Shown one piece after another: positions 5,060-35,284 of a DNA stretch of 64,000 nucleotides (the first letter of the stretch is position 1; each line of letters begins with the position of its first letter). The notes beneath the pieces were generated by a model. The model was not told where the DNA came from, did not search any database, and saw only the letters and a program-made list of their open reading frames with translations. Made by a program: the position numbers and the translations under genes. Source of the DNA: Escherichia coli (GTDB taxonomy: Bacteria > Pseudomonadota > Gammaproteobacteria > Enterobacterales > Enterobacteriaceae). The stretch lies in assembly GCF_048403405.1 (NCBI RefSeq), contig NZ_CP183129.1. The stretch is one strand, 5' to 3'.

Positions 5060-7440
5060 TAGATTGACTCCCCCACCTGAGCATCAGTCAATGCCTTGTG
5101 CCATATTCTGAAATTCCTTACATGACCAAATAAATGACGTAACCCGGCTGTAGTCTGGCCTCCAATACGGATAATTGCGGTGTTCTGAATACAGGACCAT
5201 GTGGTTTTTGTTTCGCTGGATATACGCCCGTTACTTACTGCGCATGTAGACTGATCAGACTTTACACGCATCCCCATAACCATTTTTTCAAGTGATGCAT
5301 TTTCGTTTATCCGTCTGTTAGACCCACCAATATCGCAATAAGGAAATCCGTCGTAATCTGCTGAAGAACCGAAGCCAAGAATAATAGCCGCTCCGGTTTG
5401 ATGACCGCCGGTATCAAAAACACGCGGTGCTGCATTTGGCGTTTTATACCAGTTCTTATGTACCTCACAAAGAACCGTAAAAGGAAGATTATAAAGATTA
5501 TTCTTAATGGGAACTGTGACTATATCGCTTGCGCGGGTCGCCGCCGTCGTTCCTGATATAATAAAAGATGATACACAAGGCCCATTTTCTACTTGTGGGG
5601 TGGCCAGATAAATATAGTCACCAGATACGGTTGCCCCGCCCTGCTTAGGAGAATACTGTATCTGAGAACCTATTTTTAACTCCCCATCAATTGCCTGAAT
5701 TGTTGCCTCTGCAAAAATCCATCCGATAACTTCGTCCTTTCTGACTCTCGCTGTAATCCTTGAGGCAGCGCCGCCTGTCATATTAATTTCAAGCGTTTGT
5801 GTATCAATATACACATCACCAAGAAAAGTTGTTGCGCTACCGTCATATTTATCAAATCGGATACGCAACCTTACCTGCAGTTCTGTTTTAAAACGACATG
5901 AGGTTGTCACGTATTTATTATCGCCTGAGACATCAACTGACTTTGTTGCAGCAATTGATGCCATATTAATGGCTGAGGTTTGCCCAATCAGAGAATCGTT
6001 ACAGACAAACTTTCCATAGGTAAAACCAAAACTATCCGTCCCGGTTTCGGGAACATCCATATTTGACGATCGCCCCCAACTGGCAGGGCTTTCCGAATTG
6101 AGCATGTAGTTCGTTCTTTGCCCCTCAATAAGCAGGCCATCACGTTCAAACCGTGGCTCGTCAATGGCAGCCTCTGTCAGCACACCAGATTTATTAATAT
6201 AGGTTGCTTTCGATGCGCGTTTAAACTTAACAACCTTGTCGCCAGGCATCGTTATTTCATCATCACCAATAACAATCTTTTTATATGACGGCGAAAAGCC
6301 CGTAATCATATCCAGCGAATCGTTAAATGGTATCCACACATCAGGCAGCGGCTGTAAGACATATTTATACGGCTCCGCAGCCTGGCTTGCGTACTCTCTG
6401 GCTGCATCTTCGCTTGCTTTAGCTGCCGTCTGGCTTGCTGCCGATGCTTTCGCTGAGTTCGCAGCCGCTGTTTCGCTCACCTTTGCGTTGGTTTCACTGG
6501 TTTTTGCTGCTTTTTGACTGTTAGCTGATGCAGTGGCAGAAGCAGCAGCCGCGCTTGCAGAACCAGCTGCAGCACTCTCGCTTTCGGCTGCTGCATCCTG
6601 ACTGCTTTTCGCCGCAGTTTCGCTGGCTTTGGCATTCGTTTCGCTGGTCTTCGCTGCCGTCTGGCTGGACTTTGCGTTAGTTTCACTCGTCTTCGCTGCT
6701 TTCTGACTGTTAGCCGCAGCAGTTGCTGATCCAGCAGCTGAAGTCGCAGAACCGGCTGCCGCGCTCTCGCTTTCGGCTGCTGCATCCTGACTGCTTTTCG
6801 CCGCAGTTTCACTGGCTTTGGCATTCGTTTCGCTGGTTTTCGCTGCCGTCTGGCTGGACTTTGCGTTGGTTTCGCTCGTCTTTGCGGCTGTCTCGCTATT
6901 TTTCGCGTTGGTTTCTGATTTTTTGGCTGCTGTCGCGGAGTTTTCTGATGCAGTCTGTGAGGTCGCTGCCGCCTGTGCACTATTAGCTGCATTCGTTTCT
7001 GAGGTTTTCGCCGCGTTCTTCGATGATGCCGCTGCAGTTTCGGATTTCTTTGCCGCCGCTGCGCTCTGAGAGGCGGCTTCGGCGTTGCGTGCCGCTTCTT
7101 CCACCATTTCCTCAAAACGACGCAATGCCTCCGGCATGACATCATCTTCCGTCATGGCACCGAGAAAATCATTCAGCGTACCTGGTCTGGAACCTTCATA
7201 GACGGTAATGGTTCCGGCATGTGAAGGCGGAAAACCTTCAACAAGCAGGATAACGCTGTACTGGCCATACTCAACATCCATGCTGTAACGCCCGGCTTCA
7301 TCCGGATTTTCAGAGGCCACCGTGTTCACCAGTACCGTGGTGCTGTTACGCTTTGCCTTCAGTTGAATAGTGCAGTTCTGTATTGGTTTTCCCGCACCAT
7401 CTTTCAGCACACCTGAGATTTTTACTGCTGCCATATCCAC
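5059..7440 (-). CDS. stf: side tail fiber protein (lambda Stf-like N-terminus, Ala/Ser/Thr-rich repeats, distinct C-terminal domains)
   Basis: N-terminus MAAVKISGVLKDGAGKP..NCTIQLKA matches lambda Stf; C-terminus ends GHVRNFRIWHKALTDAQV (lectin/LamG-like motif). Confidence 0.85.
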   Translation of the reverse strand: MDMAAVKISGVLKDGAGKPIQNCTIQLKAKRNSTTVLVNTVASENPDEAGRYSMDVEYGQYSVILLVEGFPPSHAGTITVYEGSRPGTLNDFLGAMTEDDVMPEALRRFEEMVEEAARNAEAASQSAAAAKKSETAAASSKNAAKTSETNAANSAQAAATSQTASENSATAAKKSETNAKNSETAAKTSETNAKSSQTAAKTSETNAKASETAAKSSQDAAAESESAAAGSATSAAGSATAAANSQKAAKTSETNAKSSQTAAKTSETNAKASETAAKSSQDAAAESESAAAGSASAAAASATASANSQKAAKTSETNAKVSETAAANSAKASAASQTAAKASEDAAREYASQAAEPYKYVLQPLPDVWIPFNDSLDMITGFSPSYKKIVIGDDEITMPGDKVVKFKRASKATYINKSGVLTEAAIDEPRFERDGLLIEGQRTNYMLNSESPASWGRSSNMDVPETGTDSFGFTYGKFVCNDSLIGQTSAINMASIAATKSVDVSGDNKYVTTSCRFKTELQVRLRIRFDKYDGSATTFLGDVYIDTQTLEINMTGGAASRITARVRKDEVIGWIFAEATIQAIDGELKIGSQIQYSPKQGGATVSGDYIYLATPQVENGPCVSSFIISGTTAATRASDIVTVPIKNNLYNLPFTVLCEVHKNWYKTPNAAPRVFDTGGHQTGAAIILGFGSSADYDGFPYCDIGGSNRRINENASLEKMVMGMRVKSDQSTCAVSNGRISSETKTTWSCIQNTAIIRIGGQTTAGLRHLFGHVRNFRIWHKALTDAQVGESI
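6511..6888. repeat. tandem direct repeat, 189-bp period (about two copies), inside stf
   Basis: ctcgctttcggctgctgcatcctgactgcttttcgccgcagtttc occurs at about 6577 and 6766; protein repeat AAKTSETNAKSSQTAAKTSETNAKASETAAKSSQDAAAESESAAAGSA. Confidence 0.8.
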
Positions 7441-27937: not shown

Positions 27938-28136
27938 CGTAACCTGTCGGATCGCCGGAAAGGACCCGAAAAATGATAATAATTATCATCTACATATCAC
28001 AACGTGCGTGTACGCCATCAAACCACGTCAAATAATCAATTATGACGCAGGTATCGTATTAATTGATCCGCATCAACTTAACGTAAAAACAACTTCAGAC
28101 AATACAAATCAGCAACACAGAATACGGGACAACCTC

Positions 28137-28331
28137 ATGTCAACGAAGAACAGAACCCGCAGAACAACAACCCGCAACATCCGCTTTCCTAACCAAATGA
28201 TTGAACAAATTAACATCGCTCTTGATCAAAAAGGGTCCGGGAATTTCTCAGCCTGGGTCATTGAAGCCTGCCGTCGGAGACTAACGTCAGAAAAGAGAGC
28301 ATATACATCAATCAAAAGTGATGAAGAATGA
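28137..28331 (+). CDS. hypothetical small protein, possible ribbon-helix-helix fold
   Basis: 64 aa MSTKNRTRRTTTRNIRFPNQMIEQINIALDQKGSGNFSAWVIEACRRRL...; beta-alpha-alpha pattern; the upstream in-frame extension crosses cosN and is rejected. Confidence 0.4.
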   Translation: MSTKNRTRRTTTRNIRFPNQMIEQINIALDQKGSGNFSAWVIEACRRRLTSEKRAYTSIKSDEE

Positions 28332-28581
28332 ATATCCCGGTTTCTTTACCTCCCCTCCCACCCCGCACAGGACTGGCGAGCGTGTGGGACAAATATGTGA
28401 GTCATAAACGCCTTATCCTCAGAAATGCAGTTGGCATCCGAACAGGACGATATTGTAAATTCACCTAATTACGAGGCATTGCAGTAGTTGAATTGTAGTT
28501 CTGTATTAGCCTGACAGTGACAGAATGCGATATTGACTCTGTCACAGGTGAAATAGTTTGAATGGTTAGCAGTTATGGTGA

Positions 28582-28788
28582 TCAGTCAACCACCAAGGAA
28601 TAATCCTTCGAATTCTTATCGTGCTTCACCAACGCTGCCTCAATTGCCCTGAATGCTTCCAGAGACACTTGATGTTCTATACATGCAATTACAACATCCG
28701 GGTAACCCATCGAAATGGTGCTATTAAGCATAGTTTTTACACGAATCTGCTCCTGGGAGGGGGCATCAGTGTATTGATCTTTATGCAT
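28582..28788 (-). CDS. hypothetical protein (68 aa)
   Basis: ORF only; cos-proximal late-region gene. Confidence 0.35.
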
Positions 28789-29083
28789 TTTGTCGCTCCA
28801 TGCGTTTGCTCTTCACTTGCGGCTAAAAATATAACGTCAAATCACTCAGCATGAAAGAGTGAAAGTTTCAGCGCGTTTCCCTTACATAATCTGTCATTTG
28901 TATTCTCTTCAGGCATACCGGAAAGACTAGGTATTGTCACACAACCAATACCATCGACAATCGAGATTTATATCTATTCGGTAATGTTTAAATATAACAA
29001 AACCCCGTAAAAACGAGGTTTATGGGTAATTTGTATTGTTGAATAGCATCTGATGAGAAATTGATGCTAATACTATAAACATA

Positions 29084-29257
29084 CTAGATTAAATCAATCT
29101 TGATATCATAGCTTTCAAGACCAGTCATTTTTTCCCGTGCAGTAAACTGGATACTGGTAACTTCTTTCCCGGTCTTTTTCTTAAGCTCAATGATTTTTTT
29201 TGTTATATATTCAGAAATATCTGCTTCTGTTTTTGTTTTTAACTCTTCAATGTTCAT
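29084..29257 (-). CDS. GnsA/GnsB-family protein
   Basis: 57 aa from MNIEELKTKTEADISEYITKKIIELKKKTGKEV...REKMTGLESYDIKIDLI. Confidence 0.6.
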   Translation of the reverse strand: MNIEELKTKTEADISEYITKKIIELKKKTGKEVTSIQFTAREKMTGLESYDIKIDLI

Positions 29258-29429
29258 CATTTCCTCTTTTAGTCTGTTATGACTTTCCTGGTACACAGTA
29301 GTGTCAATTATATGGAGCAAACGTATAAAAGATAAGATGAAACATCGCAATAATCAACATACGACGGTCTAAATTTCACACAAACAGATAAAGATGATTA
29401 TCATTTATTATCAATGCATTAGAATCAAA

Positions 29430-29660
29430 TCAATTCAAGAGTCTCATTGCTGCTTCCAGAATTTCTTCTGAAGTTACATGTCGATCCGCTGCTACATAAA
29501 TGACTTTATGATCTCCGGTCAGAGATGGAAACCCTGCAGCCATTACAGTGAGGTGTGTTGTTTCGCCATTTGGATATTCACGCATGATGGTGTTAACTCC
29601 GGTCATCACTGGCACTACCATTGCTGGTTCAGAGTTAAAAAAAACTATTATTTTTTTCAT
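29430..29660 (-). CDS. hypothetical protein (76 aa)
   Basis: ORF only, start chosen at MKKIIVFF. Confidence 0.35.
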   Translation of the reverse strand: MKKIIVFFNSEPAMVVPVMTGVNTIMREYPNGETTHLTVMAAGFPSLTGDHKVIYVAADRHVTSEEILEAAMRLLN

Positions 29661-29931
29661 AATGTTACCGTAATATGTGAGTATCCATCGACTAGACACT
29701 AAGCAAAAAAGCTCCCGAAGGAGCCTTCATTTTCACTTTCTTAAATCTAACGACAGACGGCTAACATTTAAGTATTGTGAAATATTATCAAATGTAATCA
29801 TCATTGATTTACAAAAGATACATTTTGCCCCGAAAGGATTCCTGTCAGAAACATCAAAAGATGATGTTCTATACTGAGAACCATGGCAACACGGGCATCT
29901 AAAGTGAATATGGTTTGTAATATTTTCTACC

Positions 29932-30144
29932 TCAAAGTGCCACTACATGAACAGCCGCGGGGCCTTTAGGTCCGTTCTCAATACCAAATTCGACTTCCTG
30001 ATTCTCAGTTAACGTTTTGAAATCGTTGCTCTGAATAGCTGAGAAATGGACAAACACATCTTTGCTACCATCTTTCGGCGTGATGAAACCAAAACCTTTT
30101 TCAGGGTTAAACCATTTCACTAAACCAGTCATTTTGTTAGACAT
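29932..30144 (-). CDS. cold-shock protein (CspA family, CspI-like)
   Basis: [23 protein letters not shown]...; RNP motifs. Confidence 0.9.
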
Positions 30145-30508
30145 CATTATTACCTTTTGAAGAAGTTAGCCCTTGGGCAGAATGGTCCGAAAAAAAAATA
30201 TCAGAGAGAAAAACCAACAAGGAAATCTCAAGAGGTACAAATAATAAATTTATAACAATGACTGCTTCAGATAATTTTGTAACAAACCAGAACACCATTA
30301 ACGCATGATTAACCAACCATAGCAAGGATTACTTTTGTAAAGAAAAACACACGAATGAAACAATAGCTTTATTTATTAATAAAACGTGTCATTCTGTCTA
30401 ATGACCTTTTATCTTACCCTTAAGATTTCAAGGATTTTGACTCATGGAAGAGTCCTTTTTATTTAAATTTCACATTCAGCGCTAAAAATAATCCGATTTA
30501 ATATTAAT

Positions 30509-31536
<1,028 letters not shown>

Positions 31537-31649
31537 GGATATTTATCAGGATTTATCGGCTTCAAATCCCTGGATATGTTAAATCTTACCTCACCAGTGA
31601 TGGGCACTGGCGGGAGGAGGATGTCAATCTGATAAACACAGAGGTGACT

Positions 31650-31910
31650 ATGGATTACACAAATCTACCAAAACAAACTTTTGCTGATTTAATCGCACTC
31701 AGGCAAGCAGTCGTAGCCCTAATCAACTTGTTGCCGGAGAAGGAAAAGGAATTAGTTAAAGCGCTTCTTAACAGAACTGCCGCCGATTTTTCATCATATC
31801 CACTGACAGATGACCTTGCGGACCTTCCTGAATTAATTGCAGCGTCCGCCATTAAGCTTACTGAAGAGATTTACCCTCCTCAAAAATCTTCACAAAATTC
31901 CTGCGAGTAA
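31650..31910 (+). CDS. possible antisense-oriented hypothetical protein (86 aa)
   Basis: Strong RBS gaggtg 5 nt before the ATG; lies in the R/ydfR-like intergenic region on the opposite strand. Confidence 0.25.
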   Translation: MDYTNLPKQTFADLIALRQAVVALINLLPEKEKELVKALLNRTAADFSSYPLTDDLADLPELIAASAIKLTEEIYPPQKSSQNSCE

Positions 31911-32409
31911 CTTCAATGCAATAATCGTAAAACGCCGCAAACTGCTCATCGCGGCGTTTTTTTTCATCTTCAGAAGGAATCAGCACCGACAATTTTTTAT
32001 TCAGATCAGCGACGCTGCCCTCCAGTTTTTCAATGGGCGATTCAATATCATCTTTTTCTGACCGCAATGCCGTCGGTGGCGTCTTCAGAGAACCAGTAAT
32101 TCTTCCCGGTAGCTTTCCTTTGTAGGTTATCCACACATTCTGCGCCTCTAAAATTATGGGGCGCTTTTCCGGCGACTGCTCATCCCCTTCACATAACCCG
32201 GCTGCAACTTCCAGGAAGACCTGTCTGATGCTCCTTCTGGCTGCTGCCTCATAAAACTCCAGCGCGGCACCTTCAACACGGTCCAGCGAGATGTCCAGGT
32301 CAAAAATTTCACCGTCAAAGCGTTTTTTGTCCCTTAATGCTACAGTTACCGCAACTTTATTCTCAAAATTGCGGATCCCTTTCACAATCAGTTCATAGTT
32401 TTGTGTCAT
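31858..32409 (-). CDS. hypothetical protein, YdfR-like, between holin and endolysin
   Basis: 183 aa from MTQNYELIVKGIRNFENK...; same position as ydfR in Qin. Confidence 0.45.
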   Translation of the reverse strand: MTQNYELIVKGIRNFENKVAVTVALRDKKRFDGEIFDLDISLDRVEGAALEFYEAAARRSIRQVFLEVAAGLCEGDEQSPEKRPIILEAQNVWITYKGKLPGRITGSLKTPPTALRSEKDDIESPIEKLEGSVADLNKKLSVLIPSEDEKKRRDEQFAAFYDYCIEVTRRNFVKIFEEGKSLQ

Positions 32410-32413
32410 TGAA

Positions 32414-32629
32414 TTACTCTCCCCGTGCAACCTTACGCTTGTCTTCTTTAATCTTGAAATAAAGGTTTGTCAGGTACGTCAGCAAGCCAAATACCAGACT
32501 ACCCAGCACACCGATTGCAGCCCACTGTGACGGAGTTACTTTATCGAGTAACTGCAATGCCCAGAAACCAGCATTACCAGCCGATGTGCCATAGGCGATA
32601 CCTGTTGTTAACTTATCCATTGATTTCAT
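32414..32629 (-). CDS. S: pinholin (phage 21 S-like holin)
   Basis: 71 aa [31 protein letters not shown]..., two TM segments, paired with a SAR endolysin. Confidence 0.85.
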
Positions 32630-32847
32630 ATCCTCACCCCGATGTACACAGATGGTGCAATATGTTTGAAAAGATCGGAGTCTATGGGGTAGTTTTTATA
32701 GCAAACGTTGTTCTCAACGGCGCTAAAAAACAGACACATTAAAAATGTGGGTAATTATTTTAAAAGAAAATCATATGTTAAATAATAATACGAGATATGT
32801 TTTCATATTTAGTGTACTGTATACGGCCATTTATACAGGAAAAGCCT

Positions 32848-33018
32848 ATGTCAGAACGTAAAGACTCAAAATCACGCCGTAATTATCTCGTTAAATGTTC
32901 CTGCCCAAACTGCACCCAAGAGTCAGAACACAGTTTTTCAAGAATACAAAAAGGTGCCCTTTTGATCTGCCCTCATTGCAACAAAGTATTCCAGACAAAT
33001 CTTAAAGCTGTAGCTTGA
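32848..33018 (+). CDS. YnfN-like small Cys-rich protein
   Basis: 56 aa MSERKDSKSRRNYLVKCSCPNCTQ...CPHCNK; CxC...CxxC zinc-ribbon-like. Confidence 0.5.
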   Translation: MSERKDSKSRRNYLVKCSCPNCTQESEHSFSRIQKGALLICPHCNKVFQTNLKAVA

Positions 33019-33075
33019 TTGATTTTATTCGTAACAAGTATTTTTTATATTTTAATAACATATTTAAAGCAGATA

Positions 33076-33097
33076 ATAAAAAACCCGCCTGAGCGGG
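33076..33097 (-). terminator. intrinsic terminator downstream of the cspB-like gene
   Basis: Hairpin cccgcctgagcggg with U-run on the minus strand. Confidence 0.4.
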
Positions 33098-33381
33098 TTT
33101 AATATTGTGGTACTTTTTGTGGGAGTCATCCACTTACGCACTTTGTTTTGCTATGCCAGCAGTTAGCTTCTGCTGTAAAACTATTCATGCAGCAAACCTG
33201 CACTTCACCACAATGGTTAGCATACTTTTCCTGATTAAGTTATTGCCAAATATGCTGGCCATTGTTTCATGTATTGGACCTCCTTACTATTTATTAAAGA
33301 GATCCAATATTCACCACTCTGTCTGTATCTCCACTCAGGCATCAGCCTTCTTCGTTATCGTATACAGACAAACTATGAATT

Positions 33382-33597
33382 TTAATCAGTAATTATGACA
33401 TTTGCTGCTGCAGGACCTTTAGCACCACTCTCTACAGAGAAGGTAACCTTTTGACCTTCAAATAAGGTTCGATAATTATCATTCTGAATCGCAGAAAAAT
33501 GCACAAACACATCTTTACTACCATCAACAGGAGAAATAAAGCCAAAACCTTTATCAGCGTTAAACCATTTTACTAAACCAGTCATTTTATTTGACAT
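33382..33597 (-). CDS. cold-shock protein (CspB/CspI-like)
   Basis: 71 aa [23 protein letters not shown]... Confidence 0.9.
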
Positions 33598-33896
33598 TCT
33601 ACATTCCTTAACTTGAGCCTTTCGGCATAAATGGCTTGTATAACAGAAACGACTTCGTACTTAATTGGAGAGACTCAAAGAAGGAATAAGTGAATAACAC
33701 CTGAAATGAGAACTGCTTTAGTAAACTACTTCGTATATCGTCTGTTCTTCAAACCGACGCAATCATTAACGCATAGTTGAACATATGAAGCAATGTTTAT
33801 TTTAGACATCCAGCCATCTTCAACCCCATCAAAAAACTATAGCTTTCTTCAGGAACGTGTGTATAGTGCGCCAAGTTATCAGTATTAAGGAATTTT

Positions 33897-34109
33897 TTGT
33901 CCCGTAAAATGACAGGAATTCTCAAAACCTTTGACGGCAAAAGCGGCAAAGGTCTTATAACCCCATCCGATGGTCGTATCGATGTCCAGCTTCATGTTTC
34001 AGCGCTCAATCTCCGCGATGCAGAAGAAATTACCACCGGATTACGCGTGGAATTTTGCCGGATAAATGGTCTGCGTGGACCATCAGCTGCCAATGTTTAC
34101 CTTTCATGA
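33897..34109 (+). CDS. cold-shock-like protein (CspF/CspH-like)
   Basis: 70 aa [23 protein letters not shown]... Confidence 0.85.
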
Positions 34110-34404
34110 GCTATATTAAAGCTTTAACTTCAAGCCCCATCGAATCAAACATGGAGAGTTTTCATGAATAAACCCGTCTGTCTTGATGACTGGTTGATTG
34201 GCTTTAAAAGCTTATGCTGTACTTTGACCTTAATAGCTCTGCTAATAATGTAATAAGCAAACTCATTGTATCTATGGACATTGTACTGGAAGAAAACATT
34301 TTAAACATCAGGCAAAAAACAAAGTCACCCGATAAATAATAAGTAAACTAACATGAATCCCGTAATGAGATTCAACATCTCTATTACCCTATTTAAAGCA
34401 CAAA

Positions 34405-34430
34405 AACCCGCTCATCAGCGGGTTTTCTAC
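34405..34430 (-). terminator. tR'-like intrinsic terminator of the short late-leader transcript
   Basis: Hairpin cccgctgatgagcggg followed by tttttg on the minus strand, about 45 nt downstream of the PR'-like promoter. Confidence 0.5.
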
Positions 34431-34471
34431 TTTTTCTTAACTTCGGGTATACAAAGCCCATCGTTGAAAAA

Positions 34472-34500
34472 ATTTTATCCATATTTTTTGAAAAATGCAA
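34472..34500 (-). promoter_or_regulatory. late promoter PR'-like (-35 TTGCAT, 17-nt spacer, -10 TAAAAT) with presumed qut region
   Basis: Read on the minus strand immediately downstream of the Q stop. Confidence 0.5.
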
Positions 34501-34531
34501 GCATCACGTCGCCATCTTCGGCGAAAATCAC

Positions 34532-35284
34532 TTATCTCGTCACCTTTCTCAATTGTGCTTCAGCGTAAGATTCCTCCTGCCAGCACTTTGTAACCAGTTT
34601 ATCAATGACATTTGCATATCCTTTATACCACTGATAATCACTCAGGTCCGGTACCAGCTTCTGGACATGATACCGCGCCAGTGTGGTTGGTAAACGACTA
34701 AACCGTTTTCCATTGCAACGCCCACAAATCTTATAAACAGGTGTGCCATGAAGCCGGGTCCTTTTTTCATCCAGGACAATACCTTTACCCTTACACCCTC
34801 TGCACGCTGTGCTGACTTCTCCCTTACCATGGCAATGCTGACATAGTTCCTTCACCCACTCTTCTTTGATAACAGATTCCCCGCTTCTGGAGTGTTTCAC
34901 CACTTCGCGCAATACATTATGAAATCCAGTACCAGCACAATGCTCACAACGAGCCTTACTTGCCGCAGACCTGGAATAATCAGCAAAGGCAAAATTCACA
35001 AGGTAAGGAATAATCTGTAGCCGGGTTTCTTCACTCAATTTATTCAATGTCGGGTTATCCAGTGCCATCGCGTAATTGAGCAGACCTTCAATCGCAAACT
35101 GAGGATCCTGAACACCAACTTTTGCCAGGAATAAGGCAAACCCAAGCGGTGCTTTCGATTGCACCATCCCCTGCGCAGCCATCACATCCGTAATCGTTAA
35201 ACCACCAGAGCCTGTCGCCGGTGCGTCATCACTCAATTTTGGAGATTTTGGGGAGTAATATTTTGGTAAGGCTTCAAGGTTCAT
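34532..35284 (-). CDS. Q: late antiterminator Q (phage 82/Qin QuuQ-like)
   Basis: 250 aa with multiple CxxC zinc-binding motifs, upstream of the late promoter. Confidence 0.8.
   Translation of the reverse strand: MNLEALPKYYSPKSPKLSDDAPATGSGGLTITDVMAAQGMVQSKAPLGFALFLAKVGVQDPQFAIEGLLNYAMALDNPTLNKLSEETRLQIIPYLVNFAFADYSRSAASKARCEHCAGTGFHNVLREVVKHSRSGESVIKEEWVKELCQHCHGKGEVSTACRGCKGKGIVLDEKRTRLHGTPVYKICGRCNGKRFSRLPTTLARYHVQKLVPDLSDYQWYKGYANVIDKLVTKCWQEESYAEAQLRKVTR

What the first reader, a model, noticed from the sequence alone, without database searches (positions are those of the whole stretch)
31650..31910. Antisense-oriented ORF with a strong RBS inside the lysis cassette
An 86-aa ORF on the plus strand lies in the gap between the endolysin and the YdfR-like gene, overlapping the latter's 3' end on the opposite strand. 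It has a good Shine-Dalgarno sequence; if expressed it could act as a lysis regulator or antisense element.
Basis: inference. Interest (0 to 1): 0.25.

Follow-up and report, generated by a model that had tools for sequence, protein, structure and literature searches.

The report
Antisense accessory gene in prophage lysis cassette
The ORF is a real, already annotated but uncharacterised small phage gene that runs against the lysis operon, and it is one of at least seven unrelated small genes that different prophages carry at this same spot; there is no evidence that it controls lysis.

Summary
There is an 86-codon + strand ORF at 31650-31910. An AGAGG Shine-Dalgarno sits 5 nt upstream. The ORF lies between the SAR endolysin rrrQ and a long-form ydfR gene, and overlaps the ydfR 3' end by 53 nt.

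ORF length alone proves nothing: the window holds 155 ORFs of at least 86 aa. Comparison shows the gene is real:
- RefSeq annotates it as hypothetical protein WP_001306174.1.
- It matches PHROG phrog_2572 (unknown function).
- Relatives 41-57% identical occur in Salmonella prophages and metagenomes, with in-frame indels.
- Codon-position divergence runs 2<1<3, and pN/pS is lowest in this frame.

The gene looks like an independent unit. It has conserved -35/-10-like hexamers (TTTATC-N17-TATGTT), a lower GC content, and a hairpin plus T8 terminator lying inside the convergent gene.

The conserved promoter-like motif next to the endolysin start occurs in at least 120 viral contigs. Downstream of it sit at least seven unrelated small-protein families, or no gene at all.

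Best reading: it is one allele of a variable antisense "moron" slot, encoding an acidic three-helix cytoplasmic protein. Its function is unknown. Neither a lysis-regulator nor an antisense role is shown, and expression is untested.

The parts
31539..31557 (+). Conserved motif ATATTTATCAGGATTTATC, a tandem ATTTATC(A/G)G repeat, 2 nt from the rrrQ start codon (CAT at 31534-31536)
   Evidence: It is invariant between E. coli, metagenome and Salmonella cassettes whose proteins are only 41-57% identical. Exact matches occur in at least 120 IMG/VR contigs. In Salmonella it travels with the gene even though no endolysin start is adjacent.
31552..31580 (+). Promoter-like element: -35 TTTATC (31552-31557), a 17-nt spacer, and -10 TATGTT (31575-31580). 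The predicted start of transcription is near 31587.
   Evidence: The hexamers never vary while the spacer does. TATGTT sits at this offset in 61 of 63 loci that have a + gene and in 18 of 52 loci that have none; the table tested also counts two TATATT loci as -10-like (20 of 52). Fisher p is 1.5e-12, not corrected for shared ancestry. The consensus scan did not pick it up, since it matches only 7 of 12 positions. No experimental start site is known.
31594..31610 (+). Inverted repeat CCAGTG-N5-CACTGG in the predicted 5' UTR. It could be a 5' stem-loop or an operator.
   Evidence: The predicted UTR folds at -21 kcal/mol, z = -2.0. The block GTGGTGGGCACTGG is shared by several slot alleles.
31640..31646 (+). 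Shine-Dalgarno AGAGGTG, with AGAGG 5 nt before the ATG
   Evidence: Read directly from the sequence. The distant relatives have TAAGGA in the same place.
31650..31910 (+). 86-aa gene, WP_001306174.1, PHROG phrog_2572. The product is acidic (pI 4.6) and predicted to form three helices.
31929..31964 (+). Terminator-like hairpin AAAACGCCGC-N12-GCGGCGTTTT followed by a T8 run, 19 nt after the stop codon and inside the - strand coding sequence. On the - strand it is also followed by a T-rich stretch, so it may work in both directions.
   Evidence: It folds at -14.6 kcal/mol. The stem is kept in E. coli, Salmonella and metagenome cassettes: 92% of cells are paired, with one compensatory G-C to A-U change and two G-U changes. 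The scan tool missed it because the loop is 12 nt.
31858..32409 (-). Long-form ydfR, 183 aa. Residues 1-112 are the DUF1327 domain and the rest is a C-terminal module. The last ~40 codons (about 31861-31980) always accompany the + gene.
   Evidence: Pfam DUF1327 and a full-length match to phrog_2091. The C-terminal module also occurs as a separate 67-73 aa gene in L048, L052, L056 and L062. PGAP marks the gene as a pseudogene in two genomes.
31003..31536 (-). rrrQ, a SAR-type endolysin and the next late gene after the slot
   Evidence: Pfam Phage_lysozyme, E 2.6e-24; RefSeq annotation.
32414..32629 (-). essQ, a P21-type class II holin that starts the lysis cassette
   Evidence: Pfam Phage_holin_2_1, E 1e-33.

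Best explanation
The ORF is a genuine small gene and an independent transcription unit of the "moron" type. It sits in a variable slot between the ydfR-family gene and the endolysin of a Qin/P21-type lambdoid lysis cassette, and it points against Q-dependent late transcription.

Shown here:
- The gene is conserved as a protein. Relatives are 41-57% identical, indels are in frame, and this frame has the lowest pN/pS.
- It has a Shine-Dalgarno sequence and a lower GC content than its surroundings.
- It is present in some related phages and absent from others.
- It always converges on, and overlaps by 53-59 nt, the 3' end of a late-operon gene.
- The same slot, behind the same conserved upstream sequence, holds at least seven unrelated small-protein families in other phages.

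Inferred, not shown:
- Transcription starts at the conserved TTTATC-N17-TATGTT element, near 31587.
- Transcription ends at the hairpin plus T8 (31929-31964) inside ydfR.
- The product is an acidic, cytoplasmic three-helix protein that works by binding another protein.
- It is made mainly from the repressed prophage, and is overridden by convergent late transcription after induction.
- It serves an accessory, host-phage-conflict role rather than a core lysis role.
- The roughly 100 nt of its transcript that is complementary to the late mRNA is a side effect, or at most dampens leaky late expression.
For: The gene is real:
- RefSeq annotates it as a CDS.
- It matches phrog_2572 over its full length, E 1e-53.
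- It occurs in 352 of 5426 complete E. coli genomes and in inducible phages such as 2H10, PhiR63_1 and the PhiR12 phages.
- An exhaustive HMMER search and a profile search found 89-93 aa relatives in Salmonella and metagenomes.
- Between clades, divergence by codon position runs 2<1<3.
- The + frame pN/pS is 0.39-0.59, the lowest of all six frames in all six between-clade comparisons.
- The antisense frame is broken by a stop codon in L056.
- The chance of the ORF surviving random substitution is about 0.03 per diverged lineage.

It looks like an independent unit:
- The -35 and -10 hexamers are invariant and the spacer varies.
- The -10 hexamer is associated with the presence of a + gene.
- The motif travels with the gene in Salmonella, away from any endolysin start.
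- The hairpin plus T8 is conserved, with one compensatory change.
- GC content is 42% against 50% for the window.

The slot is variable:
- Alternative genes from phrog_2411, 18136, 1853, 21218, 25324 and 10490, plus a gene of about 210-233 aa with no PHROG match, each have their own Shine-Dalgarno, and the four alleles read by eye (phrog_18136, 25324, 10490 and the long gene) are followed by a hairpin and T-run.
- These families are not detectably related to one another.
- 51 of 120 motif-bearing loci have no + gene.

The late operon is on the - strand: Q, holin, endolysin, Rz, Nu1, gpA and portal are all there.
Against: - No transcript, start-site or translation data were available.
- The promoter matches the sigma-70 consensus at only 7 of 12 positions, and the scan missed it.
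- The motif is also the normal ydfR-endolysin intergenic sequence in phages with no + gene. Its conservation could therefore serve the late mRNA or recombination rather than a promoter.
- Codon usage is unlike the neighbouring genes: log-likelihood 0.02 per codon against 0.18-0.40.
- Purifying selection is only moderate, and within the Salmonella-type clade pN/pS is noisy (0.5-0.96) and not lowest in this frame.
- The hairpin arms are also constrained by the - strand codons, and only one compensatory change was seen.
- The structure model has only moderate confidence (pLDDT 70) and no fold match.
- No functional clue came from Pfam, NCBIfam or PADLOC.
Confidence: 0.6

Rival explanations
1. The working product is the antisense RNA, not the protein. 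A + strand transcript complementary to the 3' end of ydfR, and so to the polycistronic late mRNA, would lower late-gene expression. This could silence leaky lysis genes in the lysogen, or exclude incoming related phages, as the BTP1 antisense RNA STnc6030 does.
For: - The convergent 53-59 nt ORF overlap is found in every context. With the hairpin inside ydfR, the transcripts would overlap by about 100 nt.
- The promoter-like element persists in loci with no + gene, where it would fire antisense into ydfR and the holin gene.
- Within E. coli the cassette is more conserved at the nucleotide level (pi 0.03) than rrrQ (pi 0.11).
- There is a precedent: STnc6030 in prophage BTP1 (PMC7067206).
Against: - Protein-level signals are present: a conserved start codon and Shine-Dalgarno, in-frame indels, the 2<1<3 codon-position pattern, and the lowest pN/pS in the + frame.
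- Some slot alleles do not overlap the - gene at all and have a terminator in between. Overlap is therefore not a general property of the slot.
- Rfam gave no match.
Confidence: 0.15
2. The protein regulates lysis, or acts against its convergent partner. It would bind YdfR (its C-terminal tail or DUF1327 domain), the holin or the endolysin, and so set lysis timing or neutralise YdfR activity.
For: - The gene is always linked to the last ~40 codons of a ydfR-family or standalone 67-73 aa late gene.
- It always lies in or at the edge of the lysis cassette.
- The protein is acidic.
- K-12 YdfR binds the RNase E catalytic domain and co-purifies with RNA (PMC13232886), so a partner that modulates it is conceivable.
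Against: - The linkage follows trivially from the physical overlap.
- An AlphaFold2 model of the protein fused to the tail, using paired alignments, was poor (pLDDT 47, pTM 0.27) and worse than the protein alone.
- The protein has no membrane segment and no similarity to known lysis regulators.
- Its position relative to holin and endolysin is not fixed.
- Unrelated genes fill the same slot.
- A gene oriented against the late operon is not co-expressed with lysis genes.
Confidence: 0.15
3. The ORF is an untranslated chance reading frame that gene callers have propagated. The region would be non-coding spacer, or the - strand 65-aa ORF at 31655-31852 would be the real gene.
For: - ORFs of this length are common by chance.
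- Codon usage is uninformative for both strands.
- The - strand wobble-matched frame is also open in most variants and shows a low pN/pS of 0.47-0.68.
Against: - The + ORF keeps its start, end and length (86-93 aa) at 36-42% nucleotide divergence, and indels are in frame.
- The - ORF has no Shine-Dalgarno and its start is not conserved (ATG, TTG, or absent).
- The - ORF carries an internal stop in L056, and its pN/pS is higher than the + frame in all six comparisons.
- The gap is not a decayed piece of the 296-aa YdfR form.
Confidence: 0.07

Closest known systems
Lambdoid "morons", for example lambda bor (my own knowledge of Juhala/Hendrix 2000 and of bor; morons are also discussed in PMC7067206 and PMC4104026)
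   Same: It is an extra gene wedged between two late genes, present in some relatives and absent from others. It has a promoter-like element and a terminator-like hairpin of its own, and a lower GC content. Like bor, it sits next to the lysis genes and points against late transcription. In Salmonella the cassette occupies the bor-like position between Rz and the terminase genes.
   Different: It has no lipoprotein signal, so the product is cytoplasmic. It overlaps the 3' end of a late gene, and its terminator lies inside that gene. The slot has a shared upstream sequence and many unrelated alleles. Expression from the prophage has not been shown.
STnc6030 antisense RNA of Salmonella prophage BTP1 (PMC7067206)
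   Same: It is a transcription unit inside the late region, antisense to late genes. STnc6030 is expressed from the prophage, and its 3' end pairs with the late mRNA to exclude superinfecting phage.
   Different: STnc6030 is a non-coding RNA of more than 700 nt lying opposite tail genes. Here the unit carries a conserved 86-aa coding frame with a Shine-Dalgarno. No exclusion phenotype or transcript has been shown.
Convergent small-RNA pairs at the moron site downstream of pR' in EHEC lambdoid prophages (PMC4104026)
   Same: These are convergent transcription units at a conserved position in the late region of lambdoid prophages, with related but non-identical alleles in different prophages.
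   Different: Those are 51-60 nt Hfq-bound RNAs between Q/pR' and the holin gene. This is a protein-coding unit between ydfR and the endolysin.
3'-overlapping convergent type I toxin-antitoxin pairs of Bacillus prophages, such as txpA/RatA and bsrG/SR4 (my own knowledge)
   Same: Two convergent units overlap at their 3' ends, and they are carried on a prophage.
   Different: The - partner is hydrophilic (GRAVY about -1.0) with no membrane helix, and the + partner codes for a protein. These defining features are not met.

Membership tests
PHROG phrog_2572 (phage protein family, unknown function) | A significant full-length match to the family HMM | tested here: met
   E 1.2e-53 over residues 1-86 of an 86-position profile. 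The distant relatives P0141 and P0142 match at 3.5e-27 and 8.5e-40.
Moron (independent accessory transcription unit in a phage genome) | Present in some closely related phages and absent from others at the same inter-gene position | tested here: met
   51 of 120 motif-bearing loci have no + gene, and others carry unrelated genes. The 296-aa ydfR loci lack it.
Moron (independent accessory transcription unit in a phage genome) | Its own promoter | tested here: inconclusive
   TTTATC-N17-TATGTT is conserved, the hexamers are invariant, and the -10 is associated with the presence of a + gene. It matches only 7 of 12 consensus positions, the scan did not find it, and no start-site data exist.
Moron (independent accessory transcription unit in a phage genome) | Its own factor-independent terminator | tested here: inconclusive
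   A hairpin of -14.6 kcal/mol plus a T8 run lies 19 nt after the stop codon. The stem is conserved with one compensatory change. The T-run is weaker in the Salmonella and metagenome cassettes, and termination has not been measured.
Moron (independent accessory transcription unit in a phage genome) | Base composition different from the flanking phage genes | tested here: met
   The ORF is 42% GC against 50% for the window, and its codon usage is atypical.
Moron (independent accessory transcription unit in a phage genome) | Expressed from the repressed prophage | not testable with these tools
   This needs RNA-seq or a reporter in a lysogen.
Lysis regulators (antiholins; T4 RI/RIII-type, P1 LydB-type, P2 LysA/LysC-type) | A membrane or periplasmic segment, or sequence similarity to a known regulator, together with co-expression with holin and endolysin | tested here: not met
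   There is no hydrophobic segment (GRAVY -0.11). Pfam, PHROG and NCBIfam give no match to any lysis family. The gene is oriented against the late operon.
Type I toxin-antitoxin with 3'-overlapping convergent transcripts | A small hydrophobic toxin peptide and a non-coding antitoxin RNA | tested here: not met
   The - partner is hydrophilic (GRAVY -1.0 to -0.5). The + unit carries a conserved coding frame.
Bor-type lysogenic-conversion lipoprotein | A lipoprotein signal peptide with a lipobox cysteine | tested here: not met
   The N-terminus is MDYTNLPKQTFADL, and the only cysteine is residue 85.
Pfam DUF1823 (the label given to this gene in the PhiR12-type phage records) | A match to the Pfam model | tested here: not met
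   hmmscan at E up to 0.1 returned only a sub-threshold ABATE hit. The label is seen.
Known anti-phage defence proteins (PADLOC-DB) | A match to any PADLOC model | tested here: not met
   No hit at E up to 1 for the protein, its relatives or the - partners.

The most novel reading that the evidence does not exclude
The junction between ydfR and the endolysin in Qin/P21-type lysis cassettes may be an undescribed cargo hotspot. A fixed, conserved antisense promoter beside the endolysin start would drive at least seven unrelated small-protein genes, each convergent with the late operon and often ending inside it. On this reading the small proteins are prophage-expressed conflict factors, such as superinfection exclusion, defence or counter-defence. 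Late transcription would switch them off by collision, and swapping cassettes would also rewrite the C-terminus of the RNase E-binding protein YdfR.
Probability: 0.3. Interest if true: 0.6.

Novelty: new member of a known kind. Interest (0 to 1): 0.35.

Why it matters
The ORF itself is modest: an annotated hypothetical protein of unknown function.

Its context is more useful. A short conserved sequence marks a slot in a very common prophage lysis cassette. Behind it, many unrelated small genes are lined up in the orientation expected for genes expressed during lysogeny. The motif ATATTTATCAGGNTTTATC can be used to collect these candidates cheaply from E. coli, Shigella and Salmonella prophages.

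The layout also offers a natural case for studying convergent transcription between a prophage accessory gene and the Q-antiterminated late operon. It may also explain why YdfR-family proteins come with so many different C-termini.

Tried and rejected
Protein family and structure searches that gave nothing:
- Pfam, NCBIfam and PADLOC gave no hit for the protein, its relatives or the - partners. The DUF1823 label in the phage records could not be reproduced.
- A PDB sequence-profile search found nothing.
- Foldseek of the AlphaFold2 model against PDB and BFVD gave nothing better than E 0.9.
- An AlphaFold2 model of the protein fused by a linker to the - tail, with paired alignments, was poor (pLDDT 47, pTM 0.27). 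It gives no support for a complex, though this is a weak test.

RNA and coding-potential tests:
- Rfam gave only a sub-threshold GcvB-like hit, 18 bits against a cut-off of 42.
- A codon-usage log-likelihood does not separate the + ORF from the - ORF.
- pN/pS among close E. coli variants (0.56) and within the Salmonella-type clade is too noisy to choose a frame. Only the between-clade comparisons were informative.

Alternative readings considered and rejected:
- The - strand 65-aa ORF at 31655-31852 was rejected as the real gene.
- A decayed remnant of the 296-aa YdfR form was rejected. Its C-terminal domain has no match in the gap.
- The HMMER hit to a 975-aa TPR/CHAT protein (P0140) is repeat-driven and was judged spurious. 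P0143 looks like a corrupted translation.
- hhalign between the slot's protein families found no relationship, with probability at most 1.5%.

Wider searches:
- A scan of GTDB species-representative genomes found no relative.
- Literature searches for the accession, the PHROG, DUF1327/YdfR and lysis-cassette hotspots found no description of this gene or slot.
- I tried to take the whole-window context from the best-matching genome, NZ_CP027579.1. That record is identical to the window only over about 27,970-34,620, so its IS3 insertion and integration site were not carried over to the window.

Full report
**1. What is there**

The window carries the late region of a Qin/P21-type lambdoid prophage on its - strand. 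The genes in order are:
- antiterminator Q (34532-35284);
- a P21-type holin, essQ (32414-32629);
- a ydfR-family gene (31858-32409);
- the SAR endolysin rrrQ (31003-31536);
- Rz (30509-31006);
- Nu1, gpA and portal further on.

In the 320-nt gap between ydfR and rrrQ there is a + strand ORF at 31650-31910. It is 86 aa from the ATG, or 88 aa from the GTG at 31644. AGAGG lies 5 nt before the ATG. Its last 53 nt overlap the 3' end of ydfR on the other strand.

**2. Is it more than chance?**

ORF length alone says nothing. The window has 155 ORFs of at least 86 aa, and 4% of shuffles of the gap contain one. Codon usage is also unhelpful. The case rests on comparison with other sequences.

- The ORF is already an annotated CDS in RefSeq, as hypothetical protein WP_001306174.1.
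- It matches PHROG phrog_2572 (unknown function) over its full length, E 1e-53.
- The DNA occurs in 352 of 5426 complete E. coli genomes and in inducible phages.
- Among 37 distinct E. coli/Shigella variants it is intact in 36. One lineage (three of the variants) has ATG changed to ACG but keeps the upstream GTG, and the only frameshifted variant belongs to that lineage.
- An exhaustive HMMER search and a profile search found 89-93 aa relatives, 41-57% identical, in Salmonella prophages and metagenomes.
- Those alignments show in-frame indels of 4 and 7 codons and conserved hydrophobic positions.
- Between clades, divergence by codon position runs 2<1<3, for example 0.27, 0.34 and 0.48.
- pN/pS in the + frame is 0.39-0.59, the lowest of all six frames in all six comparisons.
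- Random substitution at that divergence would leave the ORF open only about 3% of the time per lineage.

The antisense frame that shares wobble positions (a 65-aa - ORF at 31655-31852) is also open in most variants, so I tested it as a rival. It has no Shine-Dalgarno. Its start is not conserved. It carries a stop codon in L056. Its pN/pS is always higher than the + frame. I conclude that the + ORF is a real gene under moderate constraint.

**3. Anatomy of the unit**

*Upstream.* The block ATGNATATTTATCAGGNTTTATC is invariant between cassettes whose proteins have diverged by half. It is followed by TATGTT (TATTGT in Salmonella). Read as a promoter, this gives -35 TTTATC (31552-31557), a 17-nt spacer and -10 TATGTT (31575-31580). 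The hexamers never vary, while the spacer does.

*Downstream.* Nineteen nucleotides after the stop codon lies the hairpin AAAACGCCGC-N12-GCGGCGTTTT with a T8 run (31929-31964, -14.6 kcal/mol). It sits inside the ydfR coding sequence. The stem is kept in the E. coli, Salmonella and metagenome cassettes. In L055 a G-C pair has become A-U, through changes that alter an amino acid in both arms of the - strand protein (R to H and A to V).

*Composition and product.*
- GC content is 42% against 50% for the window.
- The protein is acidic (pI 4.6).
- It has no signal peptide or membrane segment.
- It is modelled as three helices with moderate confidence: pLDDT 70, pTM 0.41.

A promoter-like element, a Shine-Dalgarno, a small gene, a terminator-like hairpin and odd composition together make the classic moron layout. 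I could not test whether the promoter and terminator actually work.

**4. Context elsewhere**

In every locus the gene converges on a late-operon gene and overlaps its 3' end by 53-59 nt. The last ~40 residues of that partner are homologous across loci. What lies upstream of that tail differs:
- a DUF1327 (YdfR) domain, as in the window;
- a 67-73 aa standalone gene (L048, L052, L056, L062);
- other N-terminal parts (L055, L063, L064).

In Salmonella the pair lies after Rz and before the terminase genes, not between holin and endolysin. The gene is therefore tied to that tail, not to holin or endolysin.

**5. The slot**

Searching IMG/VR for the motif ATATTTATCAGGNTTTATC gave at least 120 contigs. 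In most of them the motif lies 2 nt from an endolysin start codon, the flank reading ..TTCATGG.

Going in the + direction from the motif, I found several arrangements:
- this gene;
- an unrelated small gene from phrog_2411, 18136, 1853, 21218, 25324 or 10490, or a gene of about 210-233 aa with no PHROG match, each with its own Shine-Dalgarno; the four alleles I read by eye (phrog_18136, 25324, 10490 and the long gene) are followed by a hairpin and T-run;
- no gene at all, with short ydfR running straight up to the motif (51 of 120 loci).

The families show no detectable relationship to one another (hhalign probability at most 1.5%). All are listed as unknown function.

The -10 hexamer TATGTT is present in 61 of 63 loci with a + gene and in 18 of 52 without; the table tested also counts two TATATT loci as -10-like (20 of 52). 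The odds ratio is 49 and p is 1.5e-12, uncorrected for shared ancestry.

Each allele comes with its own ydfR 3' end. This probably explains why YdfR-family proteins range from 114 to 296 aa. The finding is thus one allele of a polymorphic antisense slot.

**6. Mechanism**

My best-supported reading (confidence about 0.6) is that this is a moron. It would be transcribed from its own promoter against the late operon and end inside ydfR. It would yield a small acidic cytoplasmic protein that acts by binding another protein, in an accessory role.

Expression mainly in the lysogen, and shut-off by colliding late transcription, are inferred from the orientation and from what is known of morons generally. 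They are not shown.

The rivals are:
- an RNA-level antisense function, with the STnc6030 precedent (PMC7067206), at 0.15;
- a spurious ORF, at 0.07.

The YdfR link is worth noting. [quoted passage not shown] However, an AlphaFold2 fusion test gave no support for a complex between this protein and the tail.

**7. Comparison with known systems, and novelty**

- The gene is a member of phrog_2572.
- It meets the testable features of a moron, with the promoter and terminator inconclusive and expression untested.
- It fails the defining features of the other families considered:
  - antiholin-type lysis regulators;
  - type I toxin-antitoxin pairs;
  - Bor-type lipoproteins;
  - DUF1823;
  - PADLOC defence proteins.
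- I found no paper that describes this gene or this slot.

The gene is a new, uncharacterised member of a known kind. The shared-promoter, many-allele slot is the more interesting by-product, and it is directly testable.

Noticed in passing
window 31858-32430 (- strand): PGAP marks this ydfR as a pseudogene ("missing C-terminus") in CFT073 and in strain 2013C-4282. It is nevertheless an intact 183-aa ORF that matches phrog_2091 over its full length. YdfR-family proteins occur in sizes of 114-116, 168-183, 211, 243, 268 and 296 aa, sharing the DUF1327 N-terminus but carrying different C-termini.
   Followed up: partly
L048 3209-3412; L052 1558-1779; L056 6224-6445; L062 2236-2457: The C-terminal module of long YdfR also exists as a separate 67-73 aa late gene with its own start codon and Shine-Dalgarno. 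It always forms the convergent partner of the + gene.
   Followed up: partly
window 31933-31956; L055 about 683-710: The hairpin arms are the RR and AA codons of the - strand protein (KKRRDEQFAAF). In L055 the stem is kept through paired changes that alter both amino acids (R to H and A to V). This suggests selection on the structure at the expense of the protein.
   Followed up: partly
window 31535-31582 (+ strand); L056 about 5867-5914: A 15-codon mini-ORF ([15 protein letters not shown]) overlaps the conserved motif. It has the same length in Salmonella (MYIYQALSALMLWLL). It has no Shine-Dalgarno, and synonymous sites are conserved too, so the constraint is probably on the nucleotides rather than on a peptide.
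   Followed up: partly
L067-type loci (for example L067, L089, L096): In cassettes with no + gene, the TTTATC-N17-TATGTT element is still present between short ydfR and the endolysin. If active, it would fire antisense into ydfR and the holin gene.
   Followed up: partly
L075, and L070 1090-1200: The commonest slot allele (phrog_2411, 90 aa, MDN(S/N)TISLQELL...) has a different inverted repeat (GCCTG-N6-CAGGC) at the place where this cassette has CCAGTG-N5-CACTGG (window 31594-31610). A stem-loop or operator at that position may be a shared feature of the slot.
   Followed up: no
proteins P0012 and P0019: Two truncated versions of the protein, broken after residue 64 and after residue 22, continue into the same foreign tail (VNRPGFPGE.FICELRLPDH.FRWKHNKLFLLLPEEYGP). 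This suggests that one mobile element inserted at different points in the gene.
   Followed up: no
window 29932-30147 (-), 33382-33597 (-), 33897-34109 (+), 32797-33018 (+): Qin-type accessory genes are scattered through the late region: the cold-shock genes cspI, cspB and cspF, and the zinc-binding gene ynfU. The region therefore holds several other small independent genes in both orientations.
   Followed up: no
window about 27,970-34,620: The best-matching complete genome (NZ_CP027579.1) is identical to the window only across this stretch of about 6.6 kb. Outside it the match is diverged or shifted. The prophage is therefore a mosaic, and the lysis and cold-shock block moves as a unit.
   Followed up: no
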